Origin: Candidatus Aenigmatarchaeota archaeon
GTDB taxonomy: Archaea; Aenigmatarchaeota; Aenigmatarchaeia; Aenigmatarchaeales; Aenigmatarchaeaceae
Length of the DNA: 64,000 nucleotides
Assembly: GCA_043814985.1 (NCBI GenBank)
Contig: JBDRJK010000021.1
Coordinates: 1-64,000 of the forward strand
Direction: 5' to 3'
Shown here: positions 3,470 to 31,859 of the stretch, piece by piece
Numbering within the stretch: position 1 is the first letter of the stretch
How the letters are laid out: each line of letters starts with the position of its first letter
Made by a program: the position numbers and the translations under genes
Notes under the pieces: model-generated
Seen by the model: the letters and a program-made list of their open reading frames with translations, nothing else
What the model was told of the DNA's origin: nothing
The model's database searches: none

Positions 3470-3769
3470 TTATACACAACCACAAAGTCTTCTGCATCCA
3501 TCAAGATCTGTTATTGGAATATCATATTTATTAAGACACAATTGCTGTAAATTAATAGAGCCAGGCACGCCTTCAACAGTTATCTGTGCCGGAGTTTTGG
3601 AGCAGTCATAAGCCATCTTTCTGCATGCATTATTTTTAATAGCGTCTATTCCTGCTGTCTCTGCAAATGGTGTCCAGCCAGTGAAATAGACTGCAACCAT
3701 GCCCAAAAGAACAATTACAGCTATGACGATGATAACCAGAACTTCAATGGGAAGCGCTATGCCCTTCAT
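3470..3769 (-). CDS. type IV pilin-like protein (class III signal peptide)
   Basis: Re-started at MKG|IALPIEVLVIIVIAVIVLL; Cys motifs ending in C..LCGC; TATA box TTTTATATA about 22-30 nt upstream. Confidence 0.8.
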   Translation of the reverse strand: MKGIALPIEVLVIIVIAVIVLLGMVAVYFTGWTPFAETAGIDAIKNNACRKMAYDCSKTPAQITVEGVPGSINLQQLCLNKYDIPITDLDGCRRLCGCV

Positions 3770-3800
3770 AAATTCTATTTGAGAAAAGTCGTATATAAAA

Positions 3801-4169
3801 TTAAGTGCAACCACAGAGTTTTGCGCACCCTGTTGCGTCTGTATCAAAATAAATTGAACATAAATTTACCATATTATCATTTGCTCTTGAGGCACAATTG
3901 GCTGTATCAGCTGGACAAAAGTATCCGTCATCATTTACATCATATTTAGGAAGACCGGCCTTTGATCCGTCAAACAATATATTAGTTAAGTCTATTGAAG
4001 AGCAGTCATAAACCACCATTCTGCACCCAGCGTTCTTGACAGCGTCAACTCCAGCCGTTTCTGCAAAGGGTGTCCAGCCAGTGAAATAGACAGCAATCAC
4101 ACCCAAAAGAACAATTACTGCAATAACGATAATCACTAAAACATTGATTGGAAGCTCTATACCCTTCAT
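3801..4169 (-). CDS. type IV pilin-like protein
   Basis: MKG|IELPINVLVIIVIAVIVLL; N-terminus nearly identical to its neighbour; DVNDDG motif. Confidence 0.85.
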   Translation of the reverse strand: MKGIELPINVLVIIVIAVIVLLGVIAVYFTGWTPFAETAGVDAVKNAGCRMVVYDCSSIDLTNILFDGSKAGLPKYDVNDDGYFCPADTANCASRANDNMVNLCSIYFDTDATGCAKLCGCT

Positions 4170-4256: not shown

Positions 4257-4544
4257 TCACTTCTTCCCTAGTACGATCTCTATTGAAGAGACGTTTAGCT
4301 TCTCTCCCTGCTCTGTCTCGACCTGCTCTGTGTCTATCTTGACATTCTTGATCTCTGTGCCTGTGATGAACTTGTTCCTCACTATCTCAGCAACGTCCAC
4401 TGCGTGGGATATTGCCCTTCCCCTTGCCTTCAGTACTATCTCACTATTTCCCGCGTTGAACTGCGTCACGCATGCTAGCACATAGCTCATTGCAGGCTTC
4501 TTGCCTATGAAGACTACGTTGTTATCTGCTTCTTTCTCTGCCAT
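4257..4544 (-). CDS. albA: DNA/RNA-binding protein Alba
   Basis: [33 protein letters not shown] and NVSSIEI motifs; SD AGGAGG before ATG 4544. Confidence 0.97.
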
Positions 4545-4766: not shown

Positions 4767-5177
4767 CTATATTGCACAGCCACAAGATACTAGTCCGTTT
4801 CTTTCTTCTGTTACTCCGAAATAACAGGCTAGTAAAGCTGCTAGATTATCTCCATCAGCACTAGGACCACCACCTGTAGGTGCACCACATGTTGAAGTAC
4901 CCCAAGTCCAATCACTGCCTGTGTCTTCTGCTCCAAGTGTTCTATCCCTATCAGCATCAAAATCAAGAACATCTATGCTATCTAAAGCCACACCACCTGA
5001 GCAGCCTTCTGGAGATCTCATTATAAGTGCGCAGTACTTCTGCTTCGCTGCTTCCTGGTTCATAAGTCCTGCGGGTCCCATGAAGCCGCTGAAGTACAAT
5101 GCAACCAGACCTAATAGAACAATAACAGCTACTGCCACTACAACTAAAATATTTATTGGTAATTCGATACCTTTCAC
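4767..5177 (-). CDS. type IV pilin-like protein, candidate major pilin
   Basis: GTG start with strong SD GAGGTGA; MKG|IELPINILVVVAVAVIVLL; DFDADRD and GDNL motifs. Confidence 0.85.
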   Translation of the reverse strand: MKGIELPINILVVVAVAVIVLLGLVALYFSGFMGPAGLMNQEAAKQKYCALIMRSPEGCSGGVALDSIDVLDFDADRDRTLGAEDTGSDWTWGTSTCGAPTGGGPSADGDNLAALLACYFGVTEERNGLVSCGCAI

Positions 5178-5230: not shown

Positions 5231-5632
5231 TCAGGGACAACCGCATACTTTCTTCAGGCAACAATTGTACCATGCCCCCCAGTCAGCTGACGCTTGGCTG
5301 CAACTGTAAAAATTACTGCACAACTCATCTAGGTTATCATCTCCGATGCTAGTAGAATACTGACCGTTTGGGACATGCTCGTTTACGACACCGTTGTTGT
5401 TGGCGTCAAAATCTTGCACAGCCATTCTTGATGCTATAGTGCGCTCAGGGTCTTTGTTCTTGCAGAAATCCGGGTTTATCTTTATACATGTGGAACTTGT
5501 GGCTGATTGCAATGAAGAACCCACAGAGCTGGGGTCAAAGGCATTAAAGAAGAATGCCAACCCTGTTGTTAGAACAATCAGAACTATCACAATTACAATA
5601 ATAGCATTTATTGGAAGCTCCATACCTTTCAT
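5231..5632 (-). CDS. type IV pilin-like protein
   Basis: MKG|MELPINAIIVIVIVLIVL; DFDANNNG, DDNL and C-terminal CGC. Confidence 0.85.
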   Translation of the reverse strand: MKGMELPINAIIVIVIVLIVLTTGLAFFFNAFDPSSVGSSLQSATSSTCIKINPDFCKNKDPERTIASRMAVQDFDANNNGVVNEHVPNGQYSTSIGDDNLDELCSNFYSCSQASADWGAWYNCCLKKVCGCP

Positions 5633-6007
5633 CTATTCACAGTGGCAAATATTTGTTCTACATTCTTCTCTACTAACACCATACCAGCATACACAAAGCA
5701 TTAGCAAGTTATCTCCCATATTTTGGTTAGAATCGCCACAGGCTGAGGCTGAGGGGGCATAATTTCCAATACCTTCGTTCAAATCCCCATCCTTATCAGC
5801 ATCAAAATTATTAACAATAATTTTCTCAGGATCATTACAACCAATGCTTATTAACATCTGGCATGCGTTGTTTTTTGCAGACTCCAGACTAATACCACCA
5901 ACCCCAGGATCCCAGACCCCGAAGAAGAACGCTATTATCGCTAACAAGACAACCATGACAATGACAATTATCACAATTGTGCTTATGGGAAGCTCCATAC
6001 CTTTCAT
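5633..6007 (-). CDS. type IV pilin-like protein
   Basis: MKG|MELPISTIVIIVIVMVVLL; AKNNAC, NFDADKDG, GDNL and C-terminal CHC. Confidence 0.85.
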   Translation of the reverse strand: MKGMELPISTIVIIVIVMVVLLAIIAFFFGVWDPGVGGISLESAKNNACQMLISIGCNDPEKIIVNNFDADKDGDLNEGIGNYAPSASACGDSNQNMGDNLLMLCVCWYGVSREECRTNICHCE

Positions 6008-6472: not shown

Positions 6473-9400
6473 CTAGTTCTGGATTGCGTTGAAGGCTGAT
6501 ATCATGAATTCCTTGAATCTCGGGTAGTATGTGTCTTCTATCATGTTCAAATTGGCTTGCTCGTGTCTCCAGTTATTGGGGAAGAATTCTATGAGCCAAG
6601 CGCTAGAGCCTGGGGAATCAACAATGGCATCTGTGACAGAATATGCCCTTCCTGTTGAACTAGTATGTCCTGCTCTGAAATATGATGAGAAGGAAGGTGC
6701 GCCCTGTATGATTTGGTTTGCCAATGCTTGATTGCCATAGGCGCTTGCCATCTGCAGACCCGTGTGAAGATTGATGTAAACCATTGGACTATAAGTTCTG
6801 AAGACATTTTTTACAGTTTGTGTTTCTGGTTCGCTTCCTGCTGATGGACCCATATAGTCCCCAAGTGCACCGCAGTTTACTGGATCGTTTCCGCCATTTC
6901 GACCCCAACCTTCTACAAAGTTTCGGTTGAGGTTTACATTGTTGGCATTGCATCTTTTGAATGTGTTAGTATATATGTTGGACATGTCAGTGTTTACTAT
7001 CGGCATGAAGAGTACCCTGTTATTTTGCATTATGTCTTGTGCTGTGGCATCTCCAGTGTCCTCGCCATTCAGCAGCCAGTAGGCAAACCTTAGCAGAATC
7101 TCATGTGCATGATCCTCATTTCCATGCAATTGGGCATCTATAAACAATGCTGGAGCATTTGGATTGCCAGCCTCAAAAAGGTATATGTTCCTTCCCTGAA
7201 CTGATTTTCCTGCAACATGTATCTTATTACTCAAGCCATGTGCATTCCACAATTCCATCCACAGACTCTCCTTTTCAGCCCTGTCTCTCCATTGAGCCCA
7301 AGTGATGCTTGGGAAGTCTGGCAATTCATAAGTCGGTAAAGTGCTTCCACAAGACGAATCAGCAACGCATCTGGAAGCACCATAGCCGTCAGAGGCTATG
7401 CAGCCACTAGGCGTGCATGTCCTTGTTCTCTGCCTTTGGGTAGAAGAACAAGAGCCTCCCCCGCATGAGCCGCTAACCCAGTCAGTGCAGGAGCAGGTTG
7501 TCTGCTGGCTTTCAGATGCGAAAGACTGCATGACGTCGAAAAGTTCCGGATAATCCCTTATGTTCCACTCTTCTGTTCCTCCCTGCGGAGCTGGAACGTA
7601 CATGAATGCTAGGGCAACATCGACTCCCAAGTCCTTCATCTTTTGAAGAGTTGCTTGGTAAAAAGCTACAGTTTTCACAGGACCGTTTTCGTTTCCGCCC
7701 CATTCCGTGGCCCAGAGTTCCATTCCTGCGTTATGCGCGTCTGCAACAGCGTCCTCGACGCTCTGCCAATTGCTGTCCCAAGCTACAGAATTATCATATC
7801 TTCCATCCAGATAATGGTTAATGCTAATGTAATCAAATGTGTTCTTGTACCTTTCAGCATCGAATACTGGTCCATTGATTGCATAGGGGCTGTCCGGCAG
7901 GCTGTACCTGAAAGTTACTTTGGATTCAGGATCGTTGCTTTGTACCACAGCTACGGCATCGTCCCAGTAGTCCATCCATTGATTATAGAGTTGGGTATCA
8001 GAATTTGATTCCACTCTGCCAGCCTCATTCAATATTGAGTAGCTATGCTTTGGATATGAGGCAAGTCCTTTTGTGTAATAGTCTATCATGTTCAGGTAGT
8101 ATTGCCTGTATGTGGGATTTGTTGCAATCTGGCGCGTAGACCCGCTTATTTGTCCACCTACTTGGAGATAAGGAACTGTCCATAGAGCGCTTGGTGTGAT
8201 TGTATGAAAGTCAATCTGCACATTTATTCCCTTCTGCTCTGCAACTGTAAGAATCTGTCTTAAAGCGTTTAGAGTTGAAGTACTATATTGGCCTAAAACA
8301 GGTTCAAGAACTTGCCATATAAGCCTGACACTAACATACTTGATGCCATGCTGCCTGAACATTTCAAAGTCACTTTCTATTCTGCTGTTGGAAGGTGCAT
8401 CCCAAAAATAATAGTTAACACCAACTCCAAAACCATCACTTGTTGTACCTCCAGTACATGTCTGGTCAATTTGAGACTGAAAGTCGACGAGTTCATCGTA
8501 TGCAGGCTCTGGGCCTCCTGCGCCGTAGATGTTGAAACCTTCGTCCAGTCCAGTCCTTCTTGTTTCCCATGCCCATGCATATGCCCTTTGCACTATTCCT
8601 GCTTCTTCAAATTTCTGCAGGCTCTGTGTATAATGGATTCTATTTTGCTCAAGGTTTGTGTTGTCGTCCCCGAACTCTATGATCCAGAGTGACTTGTTCC
8701 TAGTCTTCAAATCAGATATAGTGTTGTCCCAATGAGACCATCTACCATTGCCTTCATTTGCATTTGGATTGGACGGGTCCAGATATATGGTTAATGCGAA
8801 TACATCGAACACGTCATACAATGAATCGCTGTATTTACCACTTCCAGGAGTGTACGAAAGTGTGAAGCGACATATTATGGTATGTGAGTTATCCACAGAC
8901 TCTATGGCGTCATAAGTATCCCTTATTAACTGCTCCATAGGAGCCCTTTGGTCAGCAGTGTTGTACCAAGGCTCGTTTAGTATGGCCCATGATTCAAGAG
9001 CAGGATAGTCTTTCAACTCTGCTACTACTGCCTTTACATATCTAAGCCAGTAACTTTTTGTTGGATTTAAAAGCAAGCTAAAGTAGTTAGTACCTGCCCA
9101 TGAGGGGAATCCTAAATTCCAACCGAACTGCGTCCAAAAGTCCAGATTGACTTTAATCCCATTGTTGTTAGCAGCATTGAGCACCCTCTTTATATTGTTA
9201 AGGTTTCCTGTGCTTAGCTGTGCGTTTCCAGAGTTATAATTAGGCTCCATCACGCTCCACATTACACGTACAGAGATGTGCTTTATTCCATCGTTGGCAA
9301 ACCTTGAGAAATCAGCATTCAATTGGCTATCAGACTCTGACCAGGCATTGCCGCCTGATATATAATTTATTCCCATAGCCATGCAGCTGTCACCGCTGAA

Positions 9401-12400
9401 GGTAACAGTCGTTGTGTCGCTATCATAACCAGCACCCGCATTTACTGTAACAGTGGCAGTGCCTGGCGAGGACGAGCTTATGGTCCTAGAGCATTTGCCA
9501 TTAGCATCAGCTGTGCAGCCGGATCTGTCAATGGTGCCTAAGTTTGTTGAGAAAGCTATGTATAGAGTTGGATAAGATGGGTTTGTTTGTGCTGTTAAGG
9601 TTGATGTTCCACCTACTGGTATTGATGATGGTGAAGCAGAAACTGATAAAGATGGAGAGGAGCTTCCACAAGAAGCATCAGCAACGCATCTGCTTGTTCC
9701 CAAACCATCGGATGGAGTACAACCAGTAGGAGTGCATGTCCTTGTTCTCTGTCTTTGTGTAGAGGAACAAGAACCTCCTCCACACGATCTTGATACCCAG
9801 CCAGTGCAGGAGCAGGTTGAAGATGCTGGTGGAATAACCAAACCTAAATCTTTGTAACGTTGCCAGTTCTCATCATCTTCTCTAAGCCAAATAAAGTTGA
9901 TTATAATTATGTCAGGATCAGATATGGAACGATCATAGCAATATTCAAGGAACTCATTGAGCTCAGCTACTTCCGAACTATCAAACTCGTTTCTCTCCCT
10001 ATAGTCTGCGCCAACCTCAGTGTTCGCCATCCAGGTTACACCGTTATCAATGAAGTGCTGCATATCAGCCTTTGCACTCTCTACAGTTTCATCATTGAAG
10101 TATGCGTGTATTCCTTGGTAGAATTTATTTTGAGGATCATTGATTTTATCGTAGGTATGCATCCAGAACCTGTCCATAACCAATATATTCGTTATTCCAG
10201 CTTGCCGAAGTTTCATTGTCATGTCATCCATAGTGTCATAAAAGTCATAGCCATTGCTTTCTAAGTTAAACCGTGATAAGACGCTGTCCGGACCAGTTAA
10301 GGATAATTCATTGGAAAGTTCGTACCAGACCCTGTGAGAATATTCTTTGTTGTTGGTTTGTTCTAGGTTCTCGACTTGGTTCTGCGTGGAAATTATGTCA
10401 TTTATTGCAGTTTGATAATTCTGCATGAATCTAACTGCACCTGAAGAATCTGGAGGATAAACATGATTTCGATCAACAATAATTATCCAATCATCTGGGG
10501 TGTTCTCAAGATAGTGTTCTATGTAAGAAAATCTGTATGGATGAACAGTTGACGCCCATGAAGGATTATATGGTAGACGGAAAATTTTCATGTTATTTTC
10601 ACTCATAAGATTTAAGACGTTGTCTATTTCTGATATTGAAGAAAAATATCCACTAAAACCAATTAAAGGGATGTTTGTTGAAGTTGTTGTTGGTTCTTCT
10701 GATTGTTTACAGCAGCACACACCAGAGGAACAGCCGTTCTGGTCGATGGATTTTTCATCTGACGAACAGGTGGCTGTTGATGATGGAGGTTTTGTTGTTA
10801 TCGGGCTTTTGCTTAAAATAATGTCGTCAAAGTAAACCGTCTTTGTAGACTCTACTACATCAGTATAATGTTTGACAGGTATCCAGTTGAATTCGTCCTG
10901 CTTGAACCGAGTCTGTATATTTCTCCAGTTCACAACTTTTGTTCCATCGATCCACACCTCAACCACTCCGTTTGTCGGATGGCGCACTACATGATATTGC
11001 ATAGTGTGCCAAACTCCCCTGGTGAAATAAAAATCAGTGATTGCATCTTCCGAGTCAACTATCATCCCGTTTTCTACCTTTTGTCTGCCTAACTTGAACC
11101 TTAGTTCGTTTCCCTCGAATACAGGTTCGATACGCAAAGTGTTCTGTTCGTCAACATACTCGAACATTAGGCCTTGGAAAACAAACCATTCGTTTACTCC
11201 TGTGAGTAAGAAATCTGATGGAAAAAGGATTTTCACTTGTACCCAGTATTCTGCTTCACTGAGATATTGAATAACCTCTGTTGATCTGGCTGTGGCTGTT
11301 TCTCCTGGCGCAGTGACTTTTAGCACCCTGTTTCCACTATTTTCTGGATCATAAGCAAAACTGATAGTTTCTGGACGATATATATGACCTTCGCCCCATC
11401 CCGTGAGTTCTCCGCCGACCAGCTGTGTCGTCGAAAAGTCATCTTGCAAAATTATGTCTTCAGATGTTCCTTCCCCTCCTCCTGAAGTTCCTCCTTCTGC
11501 AAGAGCATTCTTCAATACCTGACCCGAAGCTGTTGGAGTTTCCCAATCATAAGCCAACAAAGCATGATTTTCCCCTTCTGCATTTGCACCTCCACCAGTG
11601 TCTTGTATCCTAAGCCACCACCATGCAACATATCCCATACTCCAATCAGTTCCATCATTGTTTTCTTGTCCGTTGGCGATTCTAGTCATTAGTCTAACAA
11701 ATTCAACTTCGTCTTGGTTTCTATAATCTCCGCCAAACTCCTGAACCATTATCGGAGCTTTATCAAGAACGTAATCCCATCCCCAATCTCTTATTTCATC
11801 TTTTATTCCTTGAACTGTATCATGTCCACCGAACTCATGTGCATATTGGTGATAAACATAAACAAGGTTTTCTCCATCTAAGAAGTCAATATTAGGATTG
11901 TCCCGGATTGGACGAGCATCATGGCTCCACCCTTGAACTGCAACCATAATCAGATTTTTTGCTCCTGTCGAACGAATAGCGTCTATAGCTAGTTGAATTG
12001 CATCCCACCATTCTTCGTCTGTAACATCATGCGGTTCGTTCCAGGGACCAAATATGACATAAGGATTGTCTTTGTAAAGGTTGGCTATTTCTTTCCAAGT
12101 TTCAATCCAATCATCTATGTTAGGAGGCATTCTCATTAATTGTCCACTGTAGTCATGCTCATGAGGATATGTAATAGGGTCACCTCTAACCCACCAAATC
12201 AATGAAAGATCAGTGTAGATTCCACGTTCAGCTCCCCAGTCAATTGCTTGTTGCATCTCCAGTCTGTTTTTTCCTTCCTCCCAATACTCTCTAGTGAACG
12301 GAACCCTGACATAATTCGCTCCCCATTTTTCTATTTCATCCCAAGCATGTTCTGTCCAATCAATCTCAGTTGCTGGGTCACGTCCTGGTTTTGCTATCCA

Positions 12401-12793: not shown

Positions 12794-12848
12794 ATATAGA
12801 AATATCAATTGTCTGGCTTATAAATTTCAAGGAATTGTGATATGAGAA

Positions 12849-18794: not shown

Positions 18795-18826
18795 AAAATA
18801 TAATTCATTTGGTATTTAATTATAGG

Positions 18827-21385: not shown

Positions 21386-21402
21386 TATATATCAACATTA
21401 AT

Positions 21403-21708
21403 TTACTGTTTGGGTGGGCAGGAGCAATAAACTTCCAAGTCTTTGACAGTTTGAATTTTTAAACGTTCGAAAGCCAATGTATACAAATCCCCTCCACTCG
21501 GGTCTTCTTCAATGCACTGTATATCTTGAATTACACTGATGCTTGTGGGACAGCCATATGCCCTGTATTTAATGCAGCAGTTTCTCATTTCATTCTGCAG
21601 ATTTAAATCTTCACCAAAAGGAAGTATGTTTCCTGTTACCAACAGCGCTCCTACAACTATAACAATTAAGAAAATTACAAGCAATACCAACTTATCTAAA
21701 GCCATCAT
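21403..21708 (-). CDS. small pilin-like Cys-rich protein
   Basis: N-terminal hydrophobic helix; CC..C..C and a terminal YCSC like the other pilins. Confidence 0.75.
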   Translation of the reverse strand: MMALDKLVLLVIFLIVIVVGALLVTGNILPFGEDLNLQNEMRNCCIKYRAYGCPTSISVIQDIQCIEEDPSGGDLYTLAFERLKIQTVKDLEVYCSCPPKQ

Positions 21709-22019
21709 ATTTTAGCCTTACAAAGGTTTCTACAATTATCTATGTCCCAATTTGACATGTCGTCGTCAGGGGGTTTCCCAAGGGCAGTTGCACAGTTCTC
21801 ATTCACAGGGTATATCTCATTGTTTGCTATAACGTTTTGACCTTTACCTTCTCTGTAGTCTCCAACTCCCCAGTAAATACAGAACTGCCTGAAGTCTATT
21901 TGATTGCCTGTGTCCTCCCCGAAGGAGAAAACAGGATTGACCACAATTATCGCTATTACTAGGAGAATAATGACTACAAATATCAAACCTAAAAGCACCT
22001 CTAATTCTAAGCCCTTCAT
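21705..22019 (-). CDS. type IV pilin-like protein
   Basis: MKG|LELEVLLGLIFVVIILL; terminal CRNLC. Confidence 0.8.
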   Translation of the reverse strand: MKGLELEVLLGLIFVVIILLVIAIIVVNPVFSFGEDTGNQIDFRQFCIYWGVGDYREGKGQNVIANNEIYPVNENCATALGKPPDDDMSNWDIDNCRNLCKAKI

Positions 22020-22023
22020 ATAA

Positions 22024-23295: not shown

Positions 23296-23359
23296 AAATC
23301 CTATTGGTTAGAACTATATATTAAATGTTTTGTTTTCTTCTGATTAAATTGTGATATTT

Positions 23360-23755
23360 CTATGAGCACTTGTTGTCAGACCCGCAACTGCCCATTATGC
23401 AGTCAGCATCTGTCATGCAGCCGCAGAACGGCTGAAAATCCCCAGGATATACTGTTATGCATCTTGTGCCGTCTTCTTGGTTTAGGCAATCTTCATGGGT
23501 CTTGCAAATCTCCATTTCCCTGTCATATTCACTGAAACGTTCGGGATCATAGCTGTAATCATTGTCAGCGTTCAAATCAGTGTGACACCCAGGGTCTTCC
23601 TTGTCAACCAACATGTCATTATCGTTGTCCCTTCCGTCACTGCATTCCGGAATTTTTTCTGACTGATTGCCCATCCAGCTTCCTACCAGCACGGCTAGAA
23701 ACACTATTAAAATAATGAAAGCCATTAAAACTATAATGTCATTGTCGCCTTTCAT
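23360..23755 (-). CDS. pilin-like protein with Ca-binding-like CSDGRDNDNDMLVDKEDPGC motif
   Basis: MKG|DNDIIVLMAFIILIVF; Cys-rich C-terminus. Confidence 0.75.
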   Translation of the reverse strand: MKGDNDIIVLMAFIILIVFLAVLVGSWMGNQSEKIPECSDGRDNDNDMLVDKEDPGCHTDLNADNDYSYDPERFSEYDREMEICKTHEDCLNQEDGTRCITVYPGDFQPFCGCMTDADCIMGSCGSDNKCS

Positions 23756-23792
23756 AAGAAAGATATTCTATTTTTAGAATATAAAATTAGGG

Positions 23793-26756
23793 CTAATATA
23801 GTTTATTGTCTGAAAGAATCACTTCCATGTCGCTGCTAACTCCAGCTATGATTTCTGGTATTGTGGCTGTTCCACGATTTTCATTGCACCATCCTACCAG
23901 TGGGAAGCAAACATACTTGTTAGAATCGGATGGTATGATTTCTAATTTTACAAGGTCGCCTTCTCTGACTTTTGATTCAATATATCCACCGTTAGGAATA
24001 AATTGACTACAATCACCATTTACACATATTCTTCCCGTTCCCCCTGTAAGTATTATCTTCCACTTGACCATGAAGGAAGCGTACATAATACCGCTCGCTC
24101 CTGCTTTTATGCCTGATATTGGGTAAGGGCCTGGTGTTCCAGGATAATCATAGCTGCATACTTCTTGTCCAGAACCGAAATTAACACATGCATAATTGCT
24201 TGACTCATCAGGTGTTGACACCAATGTTACAGTCTCGCCTGTTACAAATGGTACAGTAACAGGTCCTGTTTCGTGTGTGGCGCACTGTCCTTTTACACAT
24301 ATGCTTCCTTTGCCTGCTGAGACTCCAATCTCCCAGAAATTATAAGTGCATTCCTCAGTCTGGCCGCAGTTCACCTTCTTACATCCACTTACTCCACATC
24401 CCGTTCCACCGCAATTTGTTTCCCTATTAGCAAAATTACAAGCACTACAATCAGTCACTACTTTAGAAACACCAACCCAGAAAGGTCCACAATAACATTC
24501 AACATCACAAAGCACATGAGGAACATTACCTTCTTCATAACAAATACCCCCTCCTACACAATTACAACTACTGGTGCAGCAATCTTCACCTCCTGTATTT
24601 AGACCGCAATCTGTGCATAATCCGGTTGCACAAACTCTGCATATAGCAGTTGCTTGGTCACAATGCCATCCCGCTTTGCATACTGTACCTTCGCAGCCAT
24701 ACTTACAATTTTTAACACTGCTGTATGTGCATGGGCTGCCTGAACCTCCCTTATATTCTTTACCAATTTCACATTTGTCAGGACAGTCTCCTCCTCCGCC
24801 ACCAGAATCCATGGTTGCCATTCTCCATTCATCAAAATCACCATCCTTGTCAATGTCTATGCAGGCATAATAATTGTCCGTGCTAGAATAGCTTAGAGTT
24901 TTTGTAATAGCAAAGGGCTGAGGATTATATGGTTCACCTGCCCAGCAATAGAGACTGTCTTCCTTGGACTGTTGGCTGTCAATATTAAAAACTGCCAAGG
25001 GTGTCTTGAAACCAACATTTTTTCCATCACATTCTTGATCGAAGAAATATACATCATGATCGTAGCAATAGCGCAAATTCCCAATTGTAGCCCTAGCGCT
25101 ACTGCCCGTGTCTGTAACAGAGAGAGTCATTCCATCCGCATCGCAACAATTATTCGATCTCCCAGTCACATTTATGATTACAACATCCCTTAAGTATGAG
25201 ATGCCTCTCCAGCAAGGACTTCCTGGCCAGAAGCAGCTACCAATATGGAACGATATACCACTATCATATATACTAAACCAATTATTAACTACAACCCTGT
25301 AAACCCCTTCGCTTTTGAAATTTTCATTTGGTTCAACGTTTGATTTAACAACAATACTTTTTGGTGTCCTATCTTGACAGGTTACCTGCCAACAACTTCC
25401 CATAAAATGACTTTCTAGAAAAGCTTTTAAGGAGTCAGCTTCTACAAGTTCTGCGCCTTTAAAGGTTATCACACCTTGGTTCTTCAGGCAATCATCTATG
25501 CCTTCACAGCTATTGGAAAGAATACAGCGTGTAGAGTCTTCGTTTGGTGATAAGCCAATGCAATCTTCGTTGTCAAACGATAAATCATCAGTCACCTCTT
25601 CTATTTTCTTTTTCACCTCTATAAGTCCTGTTTGATCATCCCCTCTGAATATGAAATCCATAACGCTTCTGGCCTGTCTAGTGTAAAAGCCTAGATAATT
25701 ATTCCTGACCTCCCAGTTGCTGTAACTTCCTTTATTACTCACTACATCTCCGATACGGTCTAGCATATCAGTAGTGGAATCAGCTAAATTAATGTGAGGT
25801 ATCCTTGCAAAATTAACATTGTATTTTTCCTTCTCAGGAATCCAAGTAACTCCGAAAACATAGTGGCGTTCATCATGGTCCAGAATACCTTTGGTGTCAA
25901 GATTTTCAATCTCATTCACTAGATATCTTGTGTCATACTCAGGTGTTATTTGAGGATCTACATCACAACCACTGCCTGCGCAGTCAGCCACCCACCATCT
26001 GTTCCAATCGTAAATAAGGTCTTGACCATTGTCGCAAAAAATAGGATTAGGCCAGTTACCATCATTGTCCCCGCCTTGGCAATGATTGTCCCAATTTGCC
26101 AGGGAACCAGCTTTATTTTTATTAGGAACGTAGCATACATTATTTCCAAACTTTATTTCAAAGCTATTATCTGTCATACGGGGAATAAAGCCGCCATTAC
26201 AGAAATTGCTGCTCTCAACTTTCCTGTCCTTCAATTGCATGTTCACACAGGTCTCGTCAAGGAGCGGTATTGCTGTTCCACCCTCCTGACAGAGATGACA
26301 AGGGCCAGAAACAACATCATTCAATACAGTTTCCCACACTCCACCATTAGCAATCATTTCATTTTGTGTAAATTCCTTAAGCGTGAATATCTTGCCCGAG
26401 CTTATTATGAGTTCATTTGCAAAGGATAGTATACGCTCTCCCCTAAGTGTTTCCCTGCCGTAAGTCTGATAGTCACTGTGTATTATGTTTGCTATGTGGC
26501 AGGCAATCTCAGAAGGCTGAAAGGGCTCCCAGGCCTCAAGAGGAAGCAGATGCGTTAGTATATCAGGTTCAAGTGGATCCTTGATTATGGGAGTTGTATA
26601 TGTTATGTCTCCCTCAGAACCCAGCTGTTTTATTGCGGCATCTCTCGCGCCTTCGGGGTCAAACCTGTAGAACTGTTGCCAGATTGATGTCCCAAGAAGG
26701 CTTACGATTAATGCGGTAACTATTAATAAAACGACCATGAGGGTGACATTAGTCAT
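23793..26756 (-). CDS. large membrane-anchored Cys-rich adhesin-like protein
   Basis: N-terminal TM helix, DIDKDGD motif, Cys-rich segment and two C-terminal beta-rich repeats (ICVKGQC / ICVNGDC). Confidence 0.75.
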   Translation of the reverse strand: MTNVTLMVVLLIVTALIVSLLGTSIWQQFYRFDPEGARDAAIKQLGSEGDITYTTPIIKDPLEPDILTHLLPLEAWEPFQPSEIACHIANIIHSDYQTYGRETLRGERILSFANELIISSGKIFTLKEFTQNEMIANGGVWETVLNDVVSGPCHLCQEGGTAIPLLDETCVNMQLKDRKVESSNFCNGGFIPRMTDNSFEIKFGNNVCYVPNKNKAGSLANWDNHCQGGDNDGNWPNPIFCDNGQDLIYDWNRWWVADCAGSGCDVDPQITPEYDTRYLVNEIENLDTKGILDHDERHYVFGVTWIPEKEKYNVNFARIPHINLADSTTDMLDRIGDVVSNKGSYSNWEVRNNYLGFYTRQARSVMDFIFRGDDQTGLIEVKKKIEEVTDDLSFDNEDCIGLSPNEDSTRCILSNSCEGIDDCLKNQGVITFKGAELVEADSLKAFLESHFMGSCWQVTCQDRTPKSIVVKSNVEPNENFKSEGVYRVVVNNWFSIYDSGISFHIGSCFWPGSPCWRGISYLRDVVIINVTGRSNNCCDADGMTLSVTDTGSSARATIGNLRYCYDHDVYFFDQECDGKNVGFKTPLAVFNIDSQQSKEDSLYCWAGEPYNPQPFAITKTLSYSSTDNYYACIDIDKDGDFDEWRMATMDSGGGGGDCPDKCEIGKEYKGGSGSPCTYSSVKNCKYGCEGTVCKAGWHCDQATAICRVCATGLCTDCGLNTGGEDCCTSSCNCVGGGICYEEGNVPHVLCDVECYCGPFWVGVSKVVTDCSACNFANRETNCGGTGCGVSGCKKVNCGQTEECTYNFWEIGVSAGKGSICVKGQCATHETGPVTVPFVTGETVTLVSTPDESSNYACVNFGSGQEVCSYDYPGTPGPYPISGIKAGASGIMYASFMVKWKIILTGGTGRICVNGDCSQFIPNGGYIESKVREGDLVKLEIIPSDSNKYVCFPLVGWCNENRGTATIPEIIAGVSSDMEVILSDNKLY

Positions 26757-26786
26757 AATTATTTTTAATGCGGTTTTGTATATAAA

Positions 26787-26990
26787 TCAAGCTGGTATAA
26801 TTGCGCATCCGTGGGTCAAGGCCTTGAATATGTTGCCGAATGGTATCCAGAACATGGCCCCGCACACTATCTTTCTTACAAAGGTCCCACCGAAGAATAT
26901 GGGATCTATTAAAAATACAAAAACAACCAGCCCTATGAGTACTATAACCATTACTACTATCACTGATGTTAAATGTTCTGTCATATCCAT
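26787..26990 (-). CDS. small membrane/pilin-like protein
   Basis: MDMTEHLTSVIVVMVIVLIGLVVF; within the operon. Confidence 0.6.
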   Translation of the reverse strand: MDMTEHLTSVIVVMVIVLIGLVVFVFLIDPIFFGGTFVRKIVCGAMFWIPFGNIFKALTHGCAIIPA

Positions 26991-26995
26991 ACAAA

Positions 26996-27235
26996 TCACA
27001 AAGGAACTAAATCACACGATTTATGCAACGCACCAACAAACAATTTTAAAGCAAAGTTTGCATTTTCTCCCCCGAAAAAATTCTCGAGCAGCGTGAAAGC
27101 AAAATTGCAACTCCACTTGCCAGGGCATATCCCCCCGAAAAAGTTGCAATACAGTATAGCGAACAACAAACTCAGGACTACTATAACTGCTATATTTTCT
27201 ACGATTATGTGGTACAACCACGATATGTCTGCCAT
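26996..27235 (-). CDS. small membrane protein
   Basis: Hydrophobic N-terminal helix; FFGG and Cys pattern resemble the neighbouring gene. Confidence 0.6.
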   Translation of the reverse strand: MADISWLYHIIVENIAVIVVLSLLFAILYCNFFGGICPGKWSCNFAFTLLENFFGGENANFALKLFVGALHKSCDLVPL

Positions 27236-27242
27236 TCAATCA

Positions 27243-27407
27243 CTATATGATGTTTCCGAAAAACGTGCTCATTATGTTTGCCAAAAATGCGAGCGGGCCC
27301 TCAGGAGGTCCGATTTTGAATCCCATGTAAAAACTTATTATAGCAAATAACATAATCAAGGCAAGTGCCAATAAAACTGCCTTTTTTATCAACTCTTTGG
27401 ATATCAT
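27243..27407 (-). CDS. small membrane protein not in the ORF track (54 aa)
   Basis: MISKELIKKAVLLALALIMLFAIISFYMGFKIGPPEGPLAFLANIMSTFFGNII; fills the operon gap with 4-7 nt spacers. Confidence 0.65.
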   Translation of the reverse strand: MISKELIKKAVLLALALIMLFAIISFYMGFKIGPPEGPLAFLANIMSTFFGNII

Positions 27408-27411
27408 CAAA

Positions 27412-27543
27412 TCACGGCTCTATAATGTTTGTTACATCCAGGTAACCGAATATAAGCTCGTTAGCGAACAAAACCATAAAAAGCACTATTATGACTGCTA
27501 CTATTATCCAAAAAAGCATCTCCTGAAGATCTAGTCCTTTCAT
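27412..27543 (-). CDS. tiny Flp-like pilin (43 aa)
   Basis: MKG|LDLQEMLFWIIVAVIIVLF; Glu at +5; starts 2 nt after the platform-gene stop. Confidence 0.75.
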   Translation of the reverse strand: MKGLDLQEMLFWIIVAVIIVLFMVLFANELIFGYLDVTNIIEP

Positions 27544-27545
27544 GC

Positions 27546-29627
27546 TTATCCCATGGGCTCCAATAAAGCTGCAATCGAGCTTCCGAACATTGCGTATGTT
27601 ACTGTCCAGCTTATGATATAGATTACTATTCCGAATAATAAAATCATCCATATGTTCTGCCTGACGCCAACAGGGTCATCCCCATATTTGACGCCATTCA
27701 GGAAGTATGATAAGAGGACAGCTGTCTCGATCATGTATATCCCTACAACCAGCTGGAAGAACGTTGGTGAAACTGGCATTTCACCTCCCATTGCCCAAGG
27801 TATCATGAAAACTGACTGTGCCGCGTTCATTCCTCCTGATGCTGAAGACATTATGCCCTGCATTGCTGCACCTAGGTTTGTCAGTATCTGGATTATTATC
27901 ACTGCCAGAGTAACTGTGACACCGGCTACCATTGGGGCAAGGAACATTGCCAGGAATTTCATGCTGGTTATTGTCTCGCCGAGAATCTCCTCTATTTCTT
28001 CCTTGACTTCATGAACGTCCTTGAGGTATCTTGAAATTATTACCATTGAATTGGAGGCAGTCTTGATGCTTTTTTTGGAAGACTGTATTACTGTCTGCAT
28101 TATTGAGTGGATTAATTTTGAGGGATAGTACCAGAGAGCTCCTACTTCCTTGTCAAACAGGGCTTCCTCGAAAGTGTAGCCGAACCTCTTCATGTTCAAG
28201 CTTACTATTTCGAACATGTCCGCTATTTTCATTTCTTTAAGGTTGGCCCTTGCCTTATCAATAGCAAGTTCCAGAGGCAAGCCTCCTGATAATGAGTTCC
28301 CCAGTTGGAACAGCGCTGTTGCGAACTCGTCCTCTATCTTTTCAATGTCCCTTCTTATCTTGATTTTCTGGTAGCTGTCCAAAAAGGTATATACTACAAT
28401 TATCAGTGCGATACCCAGTATCAGCAGCAAGGAAAAGTTAACTGAGATGTAAACTTCTGGGTCGCCCATGCCCATGACGCCTGTAAAGATGAAGGGTATT
28501 GATATTAAGATTGCTATTGGCAGAATAGGAATGAACCTGTTTCCCAAAGAAAACTTTCCCATGGGAGGCGTTCCCTTTGCCTTTGAGATGTCCGGGGGGG
28601 AGAATGTTGGTGGCTTGGATGATAGGATGTAATTAACAATAAAGTAAAGTGAGACAGGTAATAAAATGTCATAACCGAAGAAGACAAATGAAGGCTTGAC
28701 AACATCTGCTATGAATATCAAGATAATTGGAAACAAGATAAGGCCCATTACAGGTAGCAAAATACCCATTGCGTATATCAGCGTCATTGGCATTCTTAGG
28801 CCTGCTGCATAGTGCCTGGCCCTCTCCCTTGTACCGTTCAATATAACATTGATTGTTTCCTCGTAAACCATTTCCCTTCTTGCTTCCTCAACAATCGACC
28901 CTCTCAGAAGGTTAAGGGCCTCAGAGAATTCCTTGTTGTTGTCCTTCCACTTATTGATGTAGTCAATCAAGGCATAATCAGCAGAAGCGTACTTGCCTGT
29001 TTCAATGTCCCACAATAATTTTCTCAAATCCCAGGCCAGCGGACCCTCCAGATATTGGGAAGCAAACCTCACAGCACCCTCCAAGTTAGGTGAGGACCTC
29101 ATGTAAATGACCATGTAAAGGATTGCCAACACAGAGTCAGAGGACATTTTCATCTTCATTGATTTTGACATTGTGTCAGGATAATTGTAGAAATACCAGA
29201 AAACTACAAAAACAAGAATACCGCCGAACACAGAAAAAACTATGTCAGTCCCTATGATGATAAGGAGAATTAAAAGAGACAGGGAAATTAAAGTTGCTAA
29301 TAATGTTAAAGAGTAGGCTCCCTTTGGTGTTGCATTAATGTAACCTGCCCTTAGCGATGACATGAGTCTGGCTGATGTTTTATCGTCAGGCTTCATGGGA
29401 AGAATTCTTTCAGCACGAGAGCATGCCTTCTCGTATAATGTCACTGGCTTCTGTTCCAGCTCTTCTAGAAAGGTCAGATACTCTGTCGGATAGGGAAAGA
29501 ACTTCTCTCCTTTAGGCATCTGGATGTCTGTTGTCTTTAGAGCTCTCCTAATCTGTTGCCTTTTCAGTTCTCTTGCCTTTCTCTGAGCCTCTTCAATTTT
29601 CTTCTTATTTTTCTTTTCAAAAACCAT
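27546..29627 (-). CDS. type IV pilus platform protein (TadC/ArlJ, T2SS-F family)
   Basis: Two cytoplasmic T2SS-F-like repeats (SPNLEGAVRFA; LFQLGNSLSGGLPLE), multiple TM helices, adjacent to the ATPase. Confidence 0.88.
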   Translation of the reverse strand: MVFEKKNKKKIEEAQRKARELKRQQIRRALKTTDIQMPKGEKFFPYPTEYLTFLEELEQKPVTLYEKACSRAERILPMKPDDKTSARLMSSLRAGYINATPKGAYSLTLLATLISLSLLILLIIIGTDIVFSVFGGILVFVVFWYFYNYPDTMSKSMKMKMSSDSVLAILYMVIYMRSSPNLEGAVRFASQYLEGPLAWDLRKLLWDIETGKYASADYALIDYINKWKDNNKEFSEALNLLRGSIVEEARREMVYEETINVILNGTRERARHYAAGLRMPMTLIYAMGILLPVMGLILFPIILIFIADVVKPSFVFFGYDILLPVSLYFIVNYILSSKPPTFSPPDISKAKGTPPMGKFSLGNRFIPILPIAILISIPFIFTGVMGMGDPEVYISVNFSLLLILGIALIIVVYTFLDSYQKIKIRRDIEKIEDEFATALFQLGNSLSGGLPLELAIDKARANLKEMKIADMFEIVSLNMKRFGYTFEEALFDKEVGALWYYPSKLIHSIMQTVIQSSKKSIKTASNSMVIISRYLKDVHEVKEEIEEILGETITSMKFLAMFLAPMVAGVTVTLAVIIIQILTNLGAAMQGIMSSASGGMNAAQSVFMIPWAMGGEMPVSPTFFQLVVGIYMIETAVLLSYFLNGVKYGDDPVGVRQNIWMILLFGIVIYIISWTVTYAMFGSSIAALLEPMG

Positions 29628-31859
29628 TCAAACACTCGAATATTTTTTAAACCATTCCAGCCATTGCTTGAAAATCCTGTTGCTGTCAATAAAGCCCAAG
29701 TCCTCTCTTGAGCTTCCAGCTATCTTGTGGAACATCTGGTTGGCTTTAATGGTTGTTTCGGCCTCTAACAGGTCAGGCTTGTTTTTACTGTTTGCAATCC
29801 TGACTATTGTCTCAAGAATCTTTGACCTCAGGTTGATGTTGTCCCAGACTTGATCCCACCTTCCAGCCCATCCAGGAACCCTGTTGGAAATCTGGTTAAG
29901 GACATAGGACTCGCCGTTCAACAAGGTGTCTGTTGGCTTCAGTGTGTCCTCTGTGGAGTCATACTCCAAAAGATTGACAAAGCCTCCCTCGTCCACGGGG
30001 TCCTTTTTCCAGTGCTTCCTCACTTCAGTGACTTCAACCACTCTCCTGAATGTTCTCAGGCCGTCTGATGTTCTCAATTTATTGCAGATAACAATGAAGT
30101 CAACAGCCTTGAAGCTTGTAGGCGGAACTCCCAAGTCATTGACCAGCCTGTCATATACTCCGTAGGCAGACTCGCCGTGCACAGTTCCAGCAACAACATT
30201 AGCCATTGCGCCTATTCTCATGGCCTCGAATAGGGCCTTTGCCTCCATACTTCTGATCTCACCCAAAAACAAGCAGGAGTCACCCAACCTTAGAGAAGTT
30301 CTTATGACTTCCTCTGCAGGCAGTTCCAATTCAACCCTTGTTATAACTGATCTTGATTTGAGCCTTTCAATATTATATCCTAGATTCCTCAGTTGCTCGA
30401 CTGGAAGTTCCAACGTATCTTCTGAGGTGATAATCCTGTTATAAGGAAGTATCTGAAGCATCATGCTTCCCAACAAAGAAGTTTTTCCAGCGCCCCTTGT
30501 TCCTGCAACTAAAATAGTTCTTCCGTATGAAGCAACAAACCACATCAATCCTCCAAACAAAGAATTGAAGTATTTGTTATTCATGAACAATGGGAAGGTC
30601 CATGGTTTGAACCTGTGCCTTCTCAATGCAAAGCCTAATCCATCTGGAGATAGTCTTGGGTTGATAGCAGCAACCCTTGCAACGCCCCCCTGTATTAGCA
30701 ACTCTGTATCTAAAACAGGGTTTGCCTCATCCAAAGGCCTGCCTGATAATAGCTTGAAACGCGTTGCCCACCTGTCGCCGTCCTGCCTTGTTGGGACAAG
30801 GTTGGTCTCACACTCCTCATAATCTTGGTGATAAATAAAAACAGGAAGGTTTCCCATTGGTGAGTTGATGAAGATATCCTGTATCTTATCATCTTTCAAT
30901 AAGACCTCGATTATGCCTAAACCAGCAGTGTACCTTGTTAATATTTCTGCGAGCTTATCCAGCTGGCCCTCTTTGAAAGTCTTGCCAACCTCCTCTGCCA
31001 AATCTCTCAATAAGTCCAAGCTCAAGGTATGGAAGATTTCCCTCATTCTCTGCTGATCGCCTGTTTCCAGTTCCCTTGGCCTTCTCTCCTCCAGTACTCT
31101 TCTAGCTGCATCAAGAAGATTGTACTCGTCCTCGTCCAATTTAAACTCAGGGGGAACAGCATGGTAGATGTATCTGACTTTGTCAGGAACCTTGAATATC
31201 TCAACATCAGTGTCACCGACCTTATACCTTGCAACAGTCTCGCCTGGTGGCGGCTGGGCCATGAATTTGGTGTACATGAAGTTCGGTCTTATGGTAGGCT
31301 GGAAGAATTTCCTGTACAAAGTCCTGTCGCCAATATGATAGCCTGACAAGTAGGGTATTGACCTATCAATCAGCTCTGTCTTTTCCAAAAGTTCTTTCAA
31401 AGGTATCAGGGCATTCTCAAGATAGTGGCTTATGCACTTGTTGTACTCGTCAGAAACCATCTTAGTTTTCAAATGCCTTATCTCCCTTGTTAAATTAACA
31501 TAGCCTCCAATCGGATCTCCCCTTAACTGTAAAGTTACTAGGTCTCTTAACCATCCATACCATTGCGGCAAATATCTGGAGCACTCGCCGGTCGCAATGT
31601 TCCTCACTGACAATATTTTCTTCTCCTTTACAGCATGCGTTATTATCTGAGCAATCTCCTTGAGCATTTTAGTCTGCTCTAAATCATACTCGTACTCCCT
31701 TGTCTCTGCAATGATAATGCTGACAACTCTTTTTTCCTCTATGAGCTTCTCAACTATTCTTGCCATCACAACATCAGAATCCTCAACAGTAAAGCCGAAC
31801 ACTGAGCCTAAGCAGCTCATCCTCAGAACCCCATCTTTGACTTCTGTCTCAAAAACCAT
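29628..31859 (-). CDS. type IV pilus assembly ATPase (VirB11/TadA/ArlI family)
   Basis: Walker A GTRGAGKT, Asp box EDTLEL, Walker B-like LFLGEIR, His box TVHG. Confidence 0.93.
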   Translation of the reverse strand: MVFETEVKDGVLRMSCLGSVFGFTVEDSDVVMARIVEKLIEEKRVVSIIIAETREYEYDLEQTKMLKEIAQIITHAVKEKKILSVRNIATGECSRYLPQWYGWLRDLVTLQLRGDPIGGYVNLTREIRHLKTKMVSDEYNKCISHYLENALIPLKELLEKTELIDRSIPYLSGYHIGDRTLYRKFFQPTIRPNFMYTKFMAQPPPGETVARYKVGDTDVEIFKVPDKVRYIYHAVPPEFKLDEDEYNLLDAARRVLEERRPRELETGDQQRMREIFHTLSLDLLRDLAEEVGKTFKEGQLDKLAEILTRYTAGLGIIEVLLKDDKIQDIFINSPMGNLPVFIYHQDYEECETNLVPTRQDGDRWATRFKLLSGRPLDEANPVLDTELLIQGGVARVAAINPRLSPDGLGFALRRHRFKPWTFPLFMNNKYFNSLFGGLMWFVASYGRTILVAGTRGAGKTSLLGSMMLQILPYNRIITSEDTLELPVEQLRNLGYNIERLKSRSVITRVELELPAEEVIRTSLRLGDSCLFLGEIRSMEAKALFEAMRIGAMANVVAGTVHGESAYGVYDRLVNDLGVPPTSFKAVDFIVICNKLRTSDGLRTFRRVVEVTEVRKHWKKDPVDEGGFVNLLEYDSTEDTLKPTDTLLNGESYVLNQISNRVPGWAGRWDQVWDNINLRSKILETIVRIANSKNKPDLLEAETTIKANQMFHKIAGSSREDLGFIDSNRIFKQWLEWFKKYSSV

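What the first reader, a model, noticed from the sequence alone, without database searches (positions are those of the whole stretch)
3470..31859. 28-kb type IV pilus-like locus with about 20 pilin-like or anchored subunits and ultra-short leaders
Seen: ATPase and platform genes are followed by co-oriented genes, eleven of which begin MKG plus a hydrophobic helix (3769, 4169, 5177, 5632, 6007, 17402, 17905, 18300, 22019, 23755, 27543), along with MKA and MAFKG variants. Others start almost directly at the helix (MSEITK, MTNVTL, MDMTEH, MADISW). No prepilin peptidase or archaellum accessory gene was recognised in the window. Inference: a complex adhesion/attack filament with many Cys-rich minor subunits, where some subunits may need no class III processing.
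Basis: partly seen in the sequence, partly recalled or inferred. Interest (0 to 1): 0.8.

Follow-up and report, generated by a model that had tools for sequence, protein, structure and literature searches.

The report
Core DPANN pilus operon, leader-optional pilins
This tiny archaeon of the host-dependent DPANN group keeps a pilus-building motor that almost all its relatives share, followed by about twenty pilin-like genes, some lacking the usual leader peptide and one carrying predicted sugar- and protein-cutting domains; it likely builds a filament for gripping host cells, and its core was already described in outline.

Summary
Observation confirmed. The window belongs to an Aenigmatarchaeota-like DPANN archaeon. 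A 743-aa type IV filament ATPase and a 693-aa TadC platform are followed by 22 co-oriented N-anchored genes: 11 MKG, 1 MKA, 1 MAFKG, 7 leaderless, plus a 2-gene inserted cassette. An intact prepilin peptidase lies on another contig. The ATPase groups with a subclade-4F reference, away from VirB11 and below the FlaI cut-off. It is near-universal: 198 of 201 own-phylum and 147 of 151 Nanoarchaeota-phylum genomes. Gene order recurs across the class. The K-G site sits at a fixed distance from the helix, yet in several orthologous families it is repeatedly absent, the Met then starting near the mature N-terminus (39 of 48). The likely major pilin has a predicted pilin-like helix and a small disulfide head without a PDB match. 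The core (two coiled-coil genes, ATPase, TadC) matches Hamm et al. 2024 'locus 2', and this scan reported the same system on other DNA many times. Not found in print: the ordered subunit inventory, leader toggling, enzyme cargo. Best reading: host-contact pilus (0.6). New variant of a known kind; interest 0.5.

The parts
34766..35359 (-). 197-aa membrane protein, conserved upstream block (family f12)
34257..34766 (-). 169-aa multi-TM protein (f11), recurs upstream of the ATPase in Aenigm, Woese, Pace loci
33626..34195 (-). 189-aa multi-TM protein (f3)
33079..33612 (-). 177-aa multi-TM protein (f3 paralog)
32311..33057 (+). 248-aa cytoplasmic coiled-coil protein (f5), divergent from the ATPase; likely one of the two CCPs of Hamm locus 2
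31937..32311 (+). 124-aa coiled-coil protein (f7); likely the second CCP
29628..31859 (-). 743-aa type IV filament assembly ATPase, intact Walker A/B, Asp and His boxes, long N-terminal extension; 4F-related DPANN clade
27546..29627 (-). 693-aa single TadC/GspF platform (two T2SSF stretches)
27412..27543 (-). 43-aa tiny pilin-like, MKG
27243..27407 (-).
26996..27235 (-). 79-aa tiny pilin-like, leaderless, in-frame stop directly upstream
26787..26990 (-). 67-aa tiny pilin-like (f13); no leader in 12 of 12 f13/f18 members
23793..26756 (-). 987-aa, 58-Cys adhesin-like anchored protein, leaderless here; genes at this position in G001, G003, G006, G010, G017 start MKA/MKG
23360..23755 (-). 131-aa minor pilin-like (f10; leader in 14 of 14), acidic double-disulfide repeat
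22024..23295 (-). 423-aa leaderless paralog of the 987-aa protein (31% over 295 aa)
21705..22019 (-). 104-aa minor pilin-like (f14), MKG
21403..21708 (-). 101-aa minor pilin-like (f15), leaderless
18827..21385 (-). 852-aa signature subunit (f6): MKA leader, conserved Cys-bearing N and C regions around a hypervariable middle that is missing in G035/G040; no known family
18303..18794 (-). 163-aa minor pilin-like ('sei'), leaderless here; leader in 8 of 15 orthologs; extended to 714-1730 aa in some relatives
17902..18300 (-). 132-aa minor pilin-like (f8), MKG; leader in 12 of 22
17399..17905 (-). 168-aa minor pilin-like (f9), MKG; leader in 14 of 17
16515..17402 (-). 295-aa cargo-carrier pilin-like (f300; leader in 19 of 19), cut short here by an insertion; carries LVIVD and papain domains in G020
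15448..16524 (-). 358-aa anchored protein of an inserted two-gene cassette (paralog at C13:3343-4356); no class III leader
12849..15479 (-). 876-aa, 88-Cys secreted protein of the cassette (Big_1, disintegrin-like), ending in the displaced tail of f300
6473..12793 (-). 2106-aa MAFKG-led enzyme cargo: four GH5 stretches, polysaccharide-lyase-like domain, M14 carboxypeptidase with motifs present
5633..6007 (-). 124-aa family-1 pilin (likely major pilin family)
5231..5632 (-). 133-aa family-1 pilin
4767..5177 (-). 136-aa family-1 pilin (GTG start); model pLDDT 83, helix 8-31, break, helix 41-54, small helical head
4257..4544 (-). Alba chromatin protein inside the pilin tail (also in G013, G020); probably a bystander
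3801..4169 (-). 122-aa family-1 pilin
3470..3769 (-). 99-aa family-1 pilin; tRNA (3349-3420) and 16S rRNA gene follow

Best explanation
This is the operon of a type IV filament machine conserved across cluster-2 DPANN archaea, and it likely builds a pilus used to contact and hold host cells. Shown: motor ATPase, single TadC platform, two divergent coiled-coil genes, conserved subunit order, a class III-type site at a fixed distance from the helix, and an intact A24 peptidase elsewhere in the genome. Inferred: prepilins enter the membrane; the peptidase clips MKG/MKA leaders; subunits whose Met already sits near position +1 would skip this step; the ATPase hexamer and TadC would polymerise them, with tiny pilins and the f6-sei-f8-f9-f300 set forming a priming or tip complex and family-1 pilins the shaft; variable Cys-rich domains and fused hydrolases (GH5, M14, in a relative papain) would recognise and trim host surface glycans and proteins.
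For: T2SSE and T2SSF hits; catalytic motifs intact; ATPase in a starred clade with the Haloterrigena subclade-4F ATPase, apart from VirB11/TrbB/CpaF; present in 198 of 201 and 147 of 151 genomes at E<=1e-100, mostly one match, kept even in N. equitans (NEQ425, NEQ285; supplement rows), as expected for a lifestyle-critical machine; conserved order in 21 of 29 fetched stretches holding f6; K/R-G/A site 10 residues from the anchor column in 17 of 19 f300 members; peptidase with YD and GGGD motifs, found in 29 of 33 relatives; family-1 model with pilin-like broken N-terminal helix; fast-changing Cys-rich heads and swappable cargo; Hamm et al. report conserved T4P-like loci in cluster-2 DPANN with some products detected by proteomics (PMC11291902 passages).
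Against: No filament, expression or processing data for this organism. No subunit matches a known pilin family and the family-1 head has no PDB match (best Z 3.0; none), so pilin identity rests on leader, helix and context. The array is uncoupled from ATPase-TadC in several lineages (families f2, f3, G009, G026, G032), and the f6 profile found only 37 of 201 genomes, so the array is not shown to be as universal as the motor. Acidic, leaderless N-termini could instead be plain membrane anchors. The genome has four other secretion-ATPase loci that could serve adhesion. Near-universality fits any essential role, not adhesion in particular.
Confidence: 0.6

Rival explanations
1. A secretion or penetration device: a short piston-like endopilus, or the 6.6-7 nm tube of the DPANN attachment organelle, that would push through the host S-layer and deliver f6 (hypervariable middle between Gly/Ala-rich amphipathic segments) or hydrolases into the host.
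For: Attachment organelles of Nanobdella and YN1 contain a 7 or 6.6 nm filament of unknown protein (PMC11104419; PMC11420986); the motor is near-universal in the same groups; f6 has a cassette-like variable middle; many minor subunits, as in secretion pseudopili (own knowledge).
Against: The described filament runs between the two cytoplasms through a portal, unlike a membrane-assembled pilus. No toxin or effector family in 12 full-length plus 51 further f6 homologs. No Aenigmatarchaeota imaged in the papers read.
Confidence: 0.17
2. A nutrient or DNA scavenging pilus: the filament would bind and pull in DNA or polymers for an organism that cannot make its own nucleotides; host attachment is secondary.
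For: Universal retention in reduced genomes; the Haloterrigena 4F locus lies next to an xpb-type helicase; class III-led binding proteins are proposed to functionalise archaeal T4F for scavenging (PMC13705601 section 18); GH5 cargo here.
Against: No DNA-processing or transporter gene in the conserved block; one ATPase only; hypervariable disulfide-rich heads suit recognition of variable surfaces more than DNA. A DNA channel was not searched for.
Confidence: 0.12
3. A bindosome-like surface display platform with no long filament: most 'pilins' would stay as membrane-anchored or S-layer-associated adhesins and enzymes, and the leaderless ones are ordinary signal-anchor proteins.
For: 7 of 20 pilin-like genes lack a leader; f13/f18 never have one (0 of 12); very large cargo (2106 aa here); heads unlike known pilins.
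Against: Family 1 is small, tandemly duplicated (5 copies here plus C8:2003) and mostly leader-bearing, the pattern described for major pilins (PMC4858521 passages); leader present and absent within one orthologous family.
Confidence: 0.09
4. Archaellum or conjugative transfer system.
For: Best NCBIfam score is FlaI (124 bits) and some database names say FlaI or VirB11.
Against: 124 bits against a cut-off of 550; VirB11 55 bits against 250; the only archaellin-family match in the genome is on C1; plasmid VirB11/TrbB only 24-33% identical and in a separate clade.
Confidence: 0.02

Closest known systems
Cluster-2 DPANN type IV pilus-like 'locus 2' with coiled-coil proteins (Hamm et al. 2024, PMC11291902, Fig. 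4; passages and legend read)
   Same: Two coiled-coil genes beside CpaF-type ATPase and TadC; same lineages (Aenigm, Woese, Pace, Nano, Undin); proposed host-interaction role. The genome's C1:31593-40843 region (chaperonin, coiled-coil gene, PilA-like) resembles their locus 1.
   Different: The legend names filament proteins only for locus 1; here an ordered set of about 20 subunit genes follows TadC. Identity with NAR1_03220/NAR1_01690 was not tested; their large supplements could not be read and may list these genes.
Archaeal T4P subclade 4F (Makarova, Koonin, Albers 2016, PMC4858521; section 12 and supplement rows read)
   Same: ATPase clade, N-terminal extension, single long TadC, coiled-coil partner; the paper notes the ATPase in nanoarchaea with unidentified pilins.
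   Different: 4F pilins arCOG02981/arCOG10216 do not hit the family profiles; subunit number about 20 instead of 2-3; a separate canonical 4F-like copy exists in some relatives (L069-L072).
DPANN dark-matter pilin islands (Makarova, Wolf, Koonin 2019, PMC6393860, section 6 read)
   Same: ATPase, TadC and many unannotated signal-bearing genes read as diverse pilins.
   Different: No family definitions, order or leader analysis in the text read; the figure itself was not seen.
Archaeal T4F census (Sivabalasarma and Albers 2026, PMC13705601; abstract, passages, sections 8, 16, 18 read)
   Same: Core of ATPase, platform, pilin, SPIII peptidase; SPIII proteins carrying functional domains.
   Different: States that DPANN T4F genes are rarely in one locus and pilins scattered; this operon is ordered across a class, with subunits that curated profiles miss. 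'Aenigm' does not occur in its main text.

Membership tests
Archaeal type IV filament superfamily | VirB11/TadA-type assembly ATPase with intact motifs | tested here: met
   PF00437 over cut-off; Walker A/B, Asp and His boxes
Archaeal type IV filament superfamily | TadC/GspF platform | tested here: met
   PF00482, two stretches, 25.6 bits vs 25.2
Archaeal type IV filament superfamily | Subunits with class III signal (K/R-G/A then hydrophobic helix) | tested here: met
   13 of 20 pilin-like genes; site at fixed register in orthologs; actual cleavage not shown
Archaeal type IV filament superfamily | Prepilin peptidase in the genome | tested here: met
   C11:82298, 42.5 bits, both Asp motifs
Archaeal type IV filament superfamily | Pilin fold | tested here: inconclusive
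   Family-1 model has the broken N-terminal helix but a small helical head with no PDB match; other families not folded
Archaeal type IV filament superfamily | Assembled surface filament | not testable with these tools
   needs imaging
Subclade 4F (Makarova 2016) | ATPase in the 4F clade | tested here: met
   SH-aLRT 99 clade with the Haloterrigena pHTUR04 ATPase, whose locus is listed as 4F; one reference only, long branch, quick LG+G4 tree
Subclade 4F (Makarova 2016) | Single long TadC of arCOG01814 type | tested here: met
   Haloterrigena TadC hits the local TadC profile at 2e-40
Subclade 4F (Makarova 2016) | Major pilin arCOG02981 / arCOG10216 | tested here: not met
   No hit of either Haloterrigena pilin to the local family profiles at E<=1; only a by-eye likeness of the first residues
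Subclade 4F (Makarova 2016) | Coiled-coil partner arCOG07564 | tested here: inconclusive
   Two coiled-coil genes are adjacent; homology to arCOG07564 not tested
Subsystem 4F (Sivabalasarma 2026) | Neighbouring CetZ2, CBS or SMC gene | tested here: not met
   None among 33 proteins of 65-36280; only weak SMC-related scores for the coiled-coil genes
Hamm 2024 locus 2 | Two CCP genes with ATPase and TadC, conserved in cluster-2 DPANN and Undinarchaeota | tested here: met
   Architecture; starred clade of 42 Aenigm/Woese/Pace/Nano/Undin ATPases
Hamm 2024 locus 2 | Sequence homology to the Ca. Nha. antarcticus CCPs | not tested
   sequences not obtained
Archaellum | ArlI ATPase and archaellin/ArlH/F/G genes | tested here: not met
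   124 vs 550 bits; no such Pfam hit in the locus; archaellin-family match only on C1
Conjugative T4SS | ATPase in VirB11/TrbB clade, VirB partners | tested here: not met
   no VirB family among scanned proteins

The most novel reading that the evidence does not exclude
This operon encodes the universal host-contact machine of cluster-2 DPANN archaea: its filament is the 6.6-7 nm tube of the attachment organelle, it uses a pilin with a new disulfide-locked helical head, many subunits are born mature and bypass the prepilin peptidase (which would explain why N. equitans keeps the motor and platform with no recognised pilins or peptidase), and its tip carries swappable host-surface hydrolases and the polymorphic f6 subunit.
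Probability: 0.15. Interest if true: 0.87.

Novelty: new variant of a known kind. Interest (0 to 1): 0.5.

Why it matters
How DPANN archaea grip and feed on hosts is open: the proteins of the imaged attachment organelles are unknown (PMC11104419, PMC11420986). A motor kept by about 98% of sampled genomes in two phyla, with a defined subunit list, gives direct targets for proteomics and cryo-EM in existing co-cultures. It also supplies candidates for the 'cognate pilins' that the 2016 census could not find and qualifies the 2026 statement that DPANN T4F genes are rarely ordered. Repeated leader loss within orthologous families, if confirmed, means pilin finders that need a class III motif undercount these subunits.

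Tried and rejected
Pfam and NCBIfam named none of the small subunits nor f6 (51 of the 105 aligned rows scanned in 142). f6: no usable ESM Atlas hit, no PDB sequence match below E 0.03; its structure could not be predicted, so the toxin-like reading of its middle is untested. Family-1 fold searches: best Z 3.0 to TetR-type helices, no Foldseek match; this does not show a new fold. No RNA holder listed: no evidence on expression. Idea that leader-poor lineages lost the peptidase: rejected, G059 and G099 keep both Asp motifs; 4 of 33 genomes without a match are 77-93% complete. The register test (39 of 48 within 3 residues) is weak alone, since any N-terminal anchor has a short N-region. First tree attempt timed out; the tree used is quick LG+G4. 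Earlier-findings look-up by place gave only an unrelated tRNA intron. Papers with nothing on this locus in the passages found: PMC8204110, PMC13718433; NEQ locus-tag search gave no paper.
Full report
Setting. The window is G000:C21:1-64000 of an 808-kb, 91% complete genome. A 16S rRNA gene (1700-3285) and a tRNA (3349-3420) bound the locus. The named close homologs of the ATPase are mostly Ca. Aenigmarchaeota/Aenigmatarchaeota, so the organism is taken to be a DPANN archaeon of that phylum. Contigs from three public runs (groundwater and biofilm metagenomes, two studies) cover all 30 bins of 12000-31999.

Observation. The eleven MKG starts, MKA (21385) and MAFKG (12793) are as stated. M[KR]G begins 11 of these 22, against 9 of 554 ORFs without and 16 of 138 with an N-terminal helix elsewhere in the genome. 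Such leaders also mark the genome's other pilus loci, and PibD is reported to cleave 3-residue leaders (PMC10117864 passages), so short leaders are not the surprise.

Core machine. 29628-31859 is a T2SSE-family ATPase and 27546-29627 a T2SSF platform, with Walker A/B, Asp and His boxes intact. It scores 124 bits on FlaI (cut-off 550) and 55 on VirB11 (cut-off 250). Its best plasmid match is the Haloterrigena pHTUR04 ATPase (38.7%, 2e-53; next 3e-20), a locus whose TadC and pilins are listed as subclade 4F in the 2016 supplement. In a 66-row quick LG+G4 tree the window ATPase lies in a clade of 56 (SH-aLRT 99) with that reference, and inside it in a clade of 42 (100) made of Aenigm, Woese/Pace/Nano and Undin sequences plus rows titled Methanosarcinales or 'archaeon'; VirB11/TrbB form a separate clade (96) (long branches flagged, one 4F reference only). 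An A24 peptidase lies at C11:82298 with both Asp motifs; 29 of 33 relatives and 5 of 5 other DPANN genomes have one.

Distribution. At E<=1e-100 the ATPase is found in 198 of 201 genomes of the own phylum, G000 included (91 of 92 high-quality), and in 147 of 151 genomes of the phylum of G213, whose record is titled Nanoarchaeota, mostly as one match at 42-84% identity. The threshold can admit a sister paralog (one at 3e-102), but nearly all best matches are far stronger. Several orthologs are about 1250 aa and carry PF14890/PF14528 (intein and LAGLIDADG names recalled). N. equitans keeps a clade-4 ATPase (NEQ425) and a 4F TadC (NEQ285) apart from each other, and the 2016 text says two nanoarchaea lack the peptidase.

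Gene order. Upstream, 3-4 membrane-protein genes and two divergent coiled-coil genes recur in Aenigm, Woese and Pace loci, the coiled-coil pair also in an Undin locus. Downstream the order is tiny pilins (40-80 aa), optional large Cys-rich proteins, ~100-aa Cys pilins, f6, sei, f8, f9, f300, then 1-6 family-1 pilins. Of 43 fetched stretches (one the Haloterrigena reference), 29 held f6; 21 of these had ATPase and TadC upstream and 20 had at least three of sei/f8/f9/f300/f1 behind. This sample was chosen by ATPase and f6 hits and the profiles were built from it, so it is not an unbiased rate. Against universality: the array is uncoupled in families f2, f3 and in G009, G026, G032, and the f6 profile found 37 of 201 genomes and 171 cluster representatives (4 of 10 looked up had a taxon name, all Aenigm).

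Leaders. Where present, the site sits at a fixed distance from the helix (f300: 10 residues in 17 of 19). Leader present/absent: f300 19/0, f10 14/0, f24 5/0, f9 14/3, f19 4/1, f14 6/3, f8 12/10, sei 8/7, f6 13/16, f15 2/8, f13+f18 0/12 (all upstream ATG/GTG/TTG considered; G143 f6 is miscalled leaderless because its longer leader holds Asp). Several leaderless genes have an in-frame stop directly before the ATG. In 39 of 48 leaderless members the first ATG lies within 3 residues of the family's cleavage position, and the state changes 7 times on a 28-row f6 tree. Inference: subunits can be made already 'mature'. The alternative, plain membrane anchors, is not excluded.

Subunits. Family 1 (five copies here, a sixth at C8:2003) has four near-invariant Cys. 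Its model (pLDDT 83, pTM 0.67, 28 sequences) shows helix 8-31, a break, helix 41-54 and a small helical head without a sheet; no PDB match; Atlas look-alikes are unnamed Aenigm and Nanobdellota clusters. f6 has conserved Cys-bearing ends, Gly/Ala-rich amphipathic segments and a hypervariable middle absent in G035/G040; nothing known matches it and it could not be folded. f300 residues 1-291 align to residues 1-303 of an 853-aa ortholog, and the last 89 residues of 12849-15479 align to its residues 301-389, so a ~3.5-kb two-gene cassette, with a paralogous pair on C13, was likely inserted into f300; the junctions are bridged by run contigs. 6473-12793 carries four GH5 stretches, a polysaccharide-lyase-like domain and an M14 peptidase with catalytic-type motifs visible (motif roles recalled); no homolog outside the window was found in the fetched loci. 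In G020 the f300 subunit carries LVIVD repeats and a papain domain.

Mechanism. Best reading (0.6): a host-contact type IV pilus with a multi-subunit tip and swappable cargo. Rivals: penetration or secretion device, including the attachment-organelle tube (0.17); scavenging pilus (0.12); display platform without filament (0.09); archaellum or conjugation (0.02). Assembly order, tip composition and function are inferred by analogy with other type IV filaments (own knowledge).

What is known. Hamm et al. 2024 describe two conserved T4P-like loci with coiled-coil proteins in cluster-2 DPANN and Undinarchaeota, naming filament proteins only for locus 1 (I reached this paper through earlier scan notes). 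Their main supplement and datasets were too large to read and may list the downstream genes. Makarova 2016 notes the 4F ATPase in nanoarchaea with unidentified pilins; Makarova 2019 reads such islands as diverse pilins; the 2026 census says DPANN T4F genes are rarely in one locus (supplements not read). Searches returned no paper that I found to give the subunit order, leader toggling or enzyme cargo; only the papers cited here were opened. Earlier notes of this scan report the same system, leaderless pilins and cargo fusions on other genomes; they are not independent evidence.

Verdict. Real, well conserved, probably central to DPANN life, core already published; a new variant of a known kind. 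Interest 0.5; 0.87 if it proves to be the attachment-organelle filament (probability 0.15).

Noticed in passing
window:4257-4544 (-): Alba gene embedded among family-1 pilin genes; same placement in G013 and G020.
   Followed up: partly
window:6123-6470 (+): 115-aa anchored Cys-containing protein on the opposite strand inside the locus; no homolog in fetched loci.
   Followed up: partly
G000 C1:31593-40843: Second pilus locus (chaperonin, coiled-coil gene, PilA/archaellin-like gene, two TadC-sized ORFs) resembling Hamm locus 1; its ATPase is split over two ORFs (367 and 249 aa), a frameshift or assembly error.
   Followed up: partly
G000 C19:5815-12930: 2371-aa MRG-led protein with a family-1-like N-terminus and a region similar to the window's 2106-aa enzyme protein: a second likely enzyme-carrying pilin outside the locus.
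   Followed up: partly
L034, L035, L037, L039, L041, L042 (G017, G010, G004, G040, G037, G014): The ATPase is interrupted by intein-sized insertions near query residues 483-538, two in G014.
   Followed up: no
L069-L072: A sister, canonical 4F-like system (Cys-rich ATPase N-terminus, short IEGLP-type pilin in three of four loci) coexists in some relatives.
   Followed up: partly
L073 (G061:C1:100000-117000): A second TadC followed by about twelve further Cys-rich pilin-like genes, close to the main operon.
   Followed up: no
L118, L133, L149, L155: Records titled Methanosarcinales whose ATPases nest among Woesearchaeota sequences; probably mislabelled titles.
   Followed up: no
window:54718-59256: Three aspartyl/asparaginyl-tRNA-synthetase-like ORFs close together (452, 448, 435 aa; judged by eye), next to an amidohydrolase-like ORF.
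   Followed up: no
window:40002-50605: Two P-type ATPase-like ORFs around a cation-exchanger-like gene, and a membrane-bound hydrogenase-like cluster (judged by eye).
   Followed up: no
window:1700-3285: 16S rRNA gene with tRNAs at 1125-1195 and 3349-3420 and no 23S gene next to it in the window.
   Followed up: no
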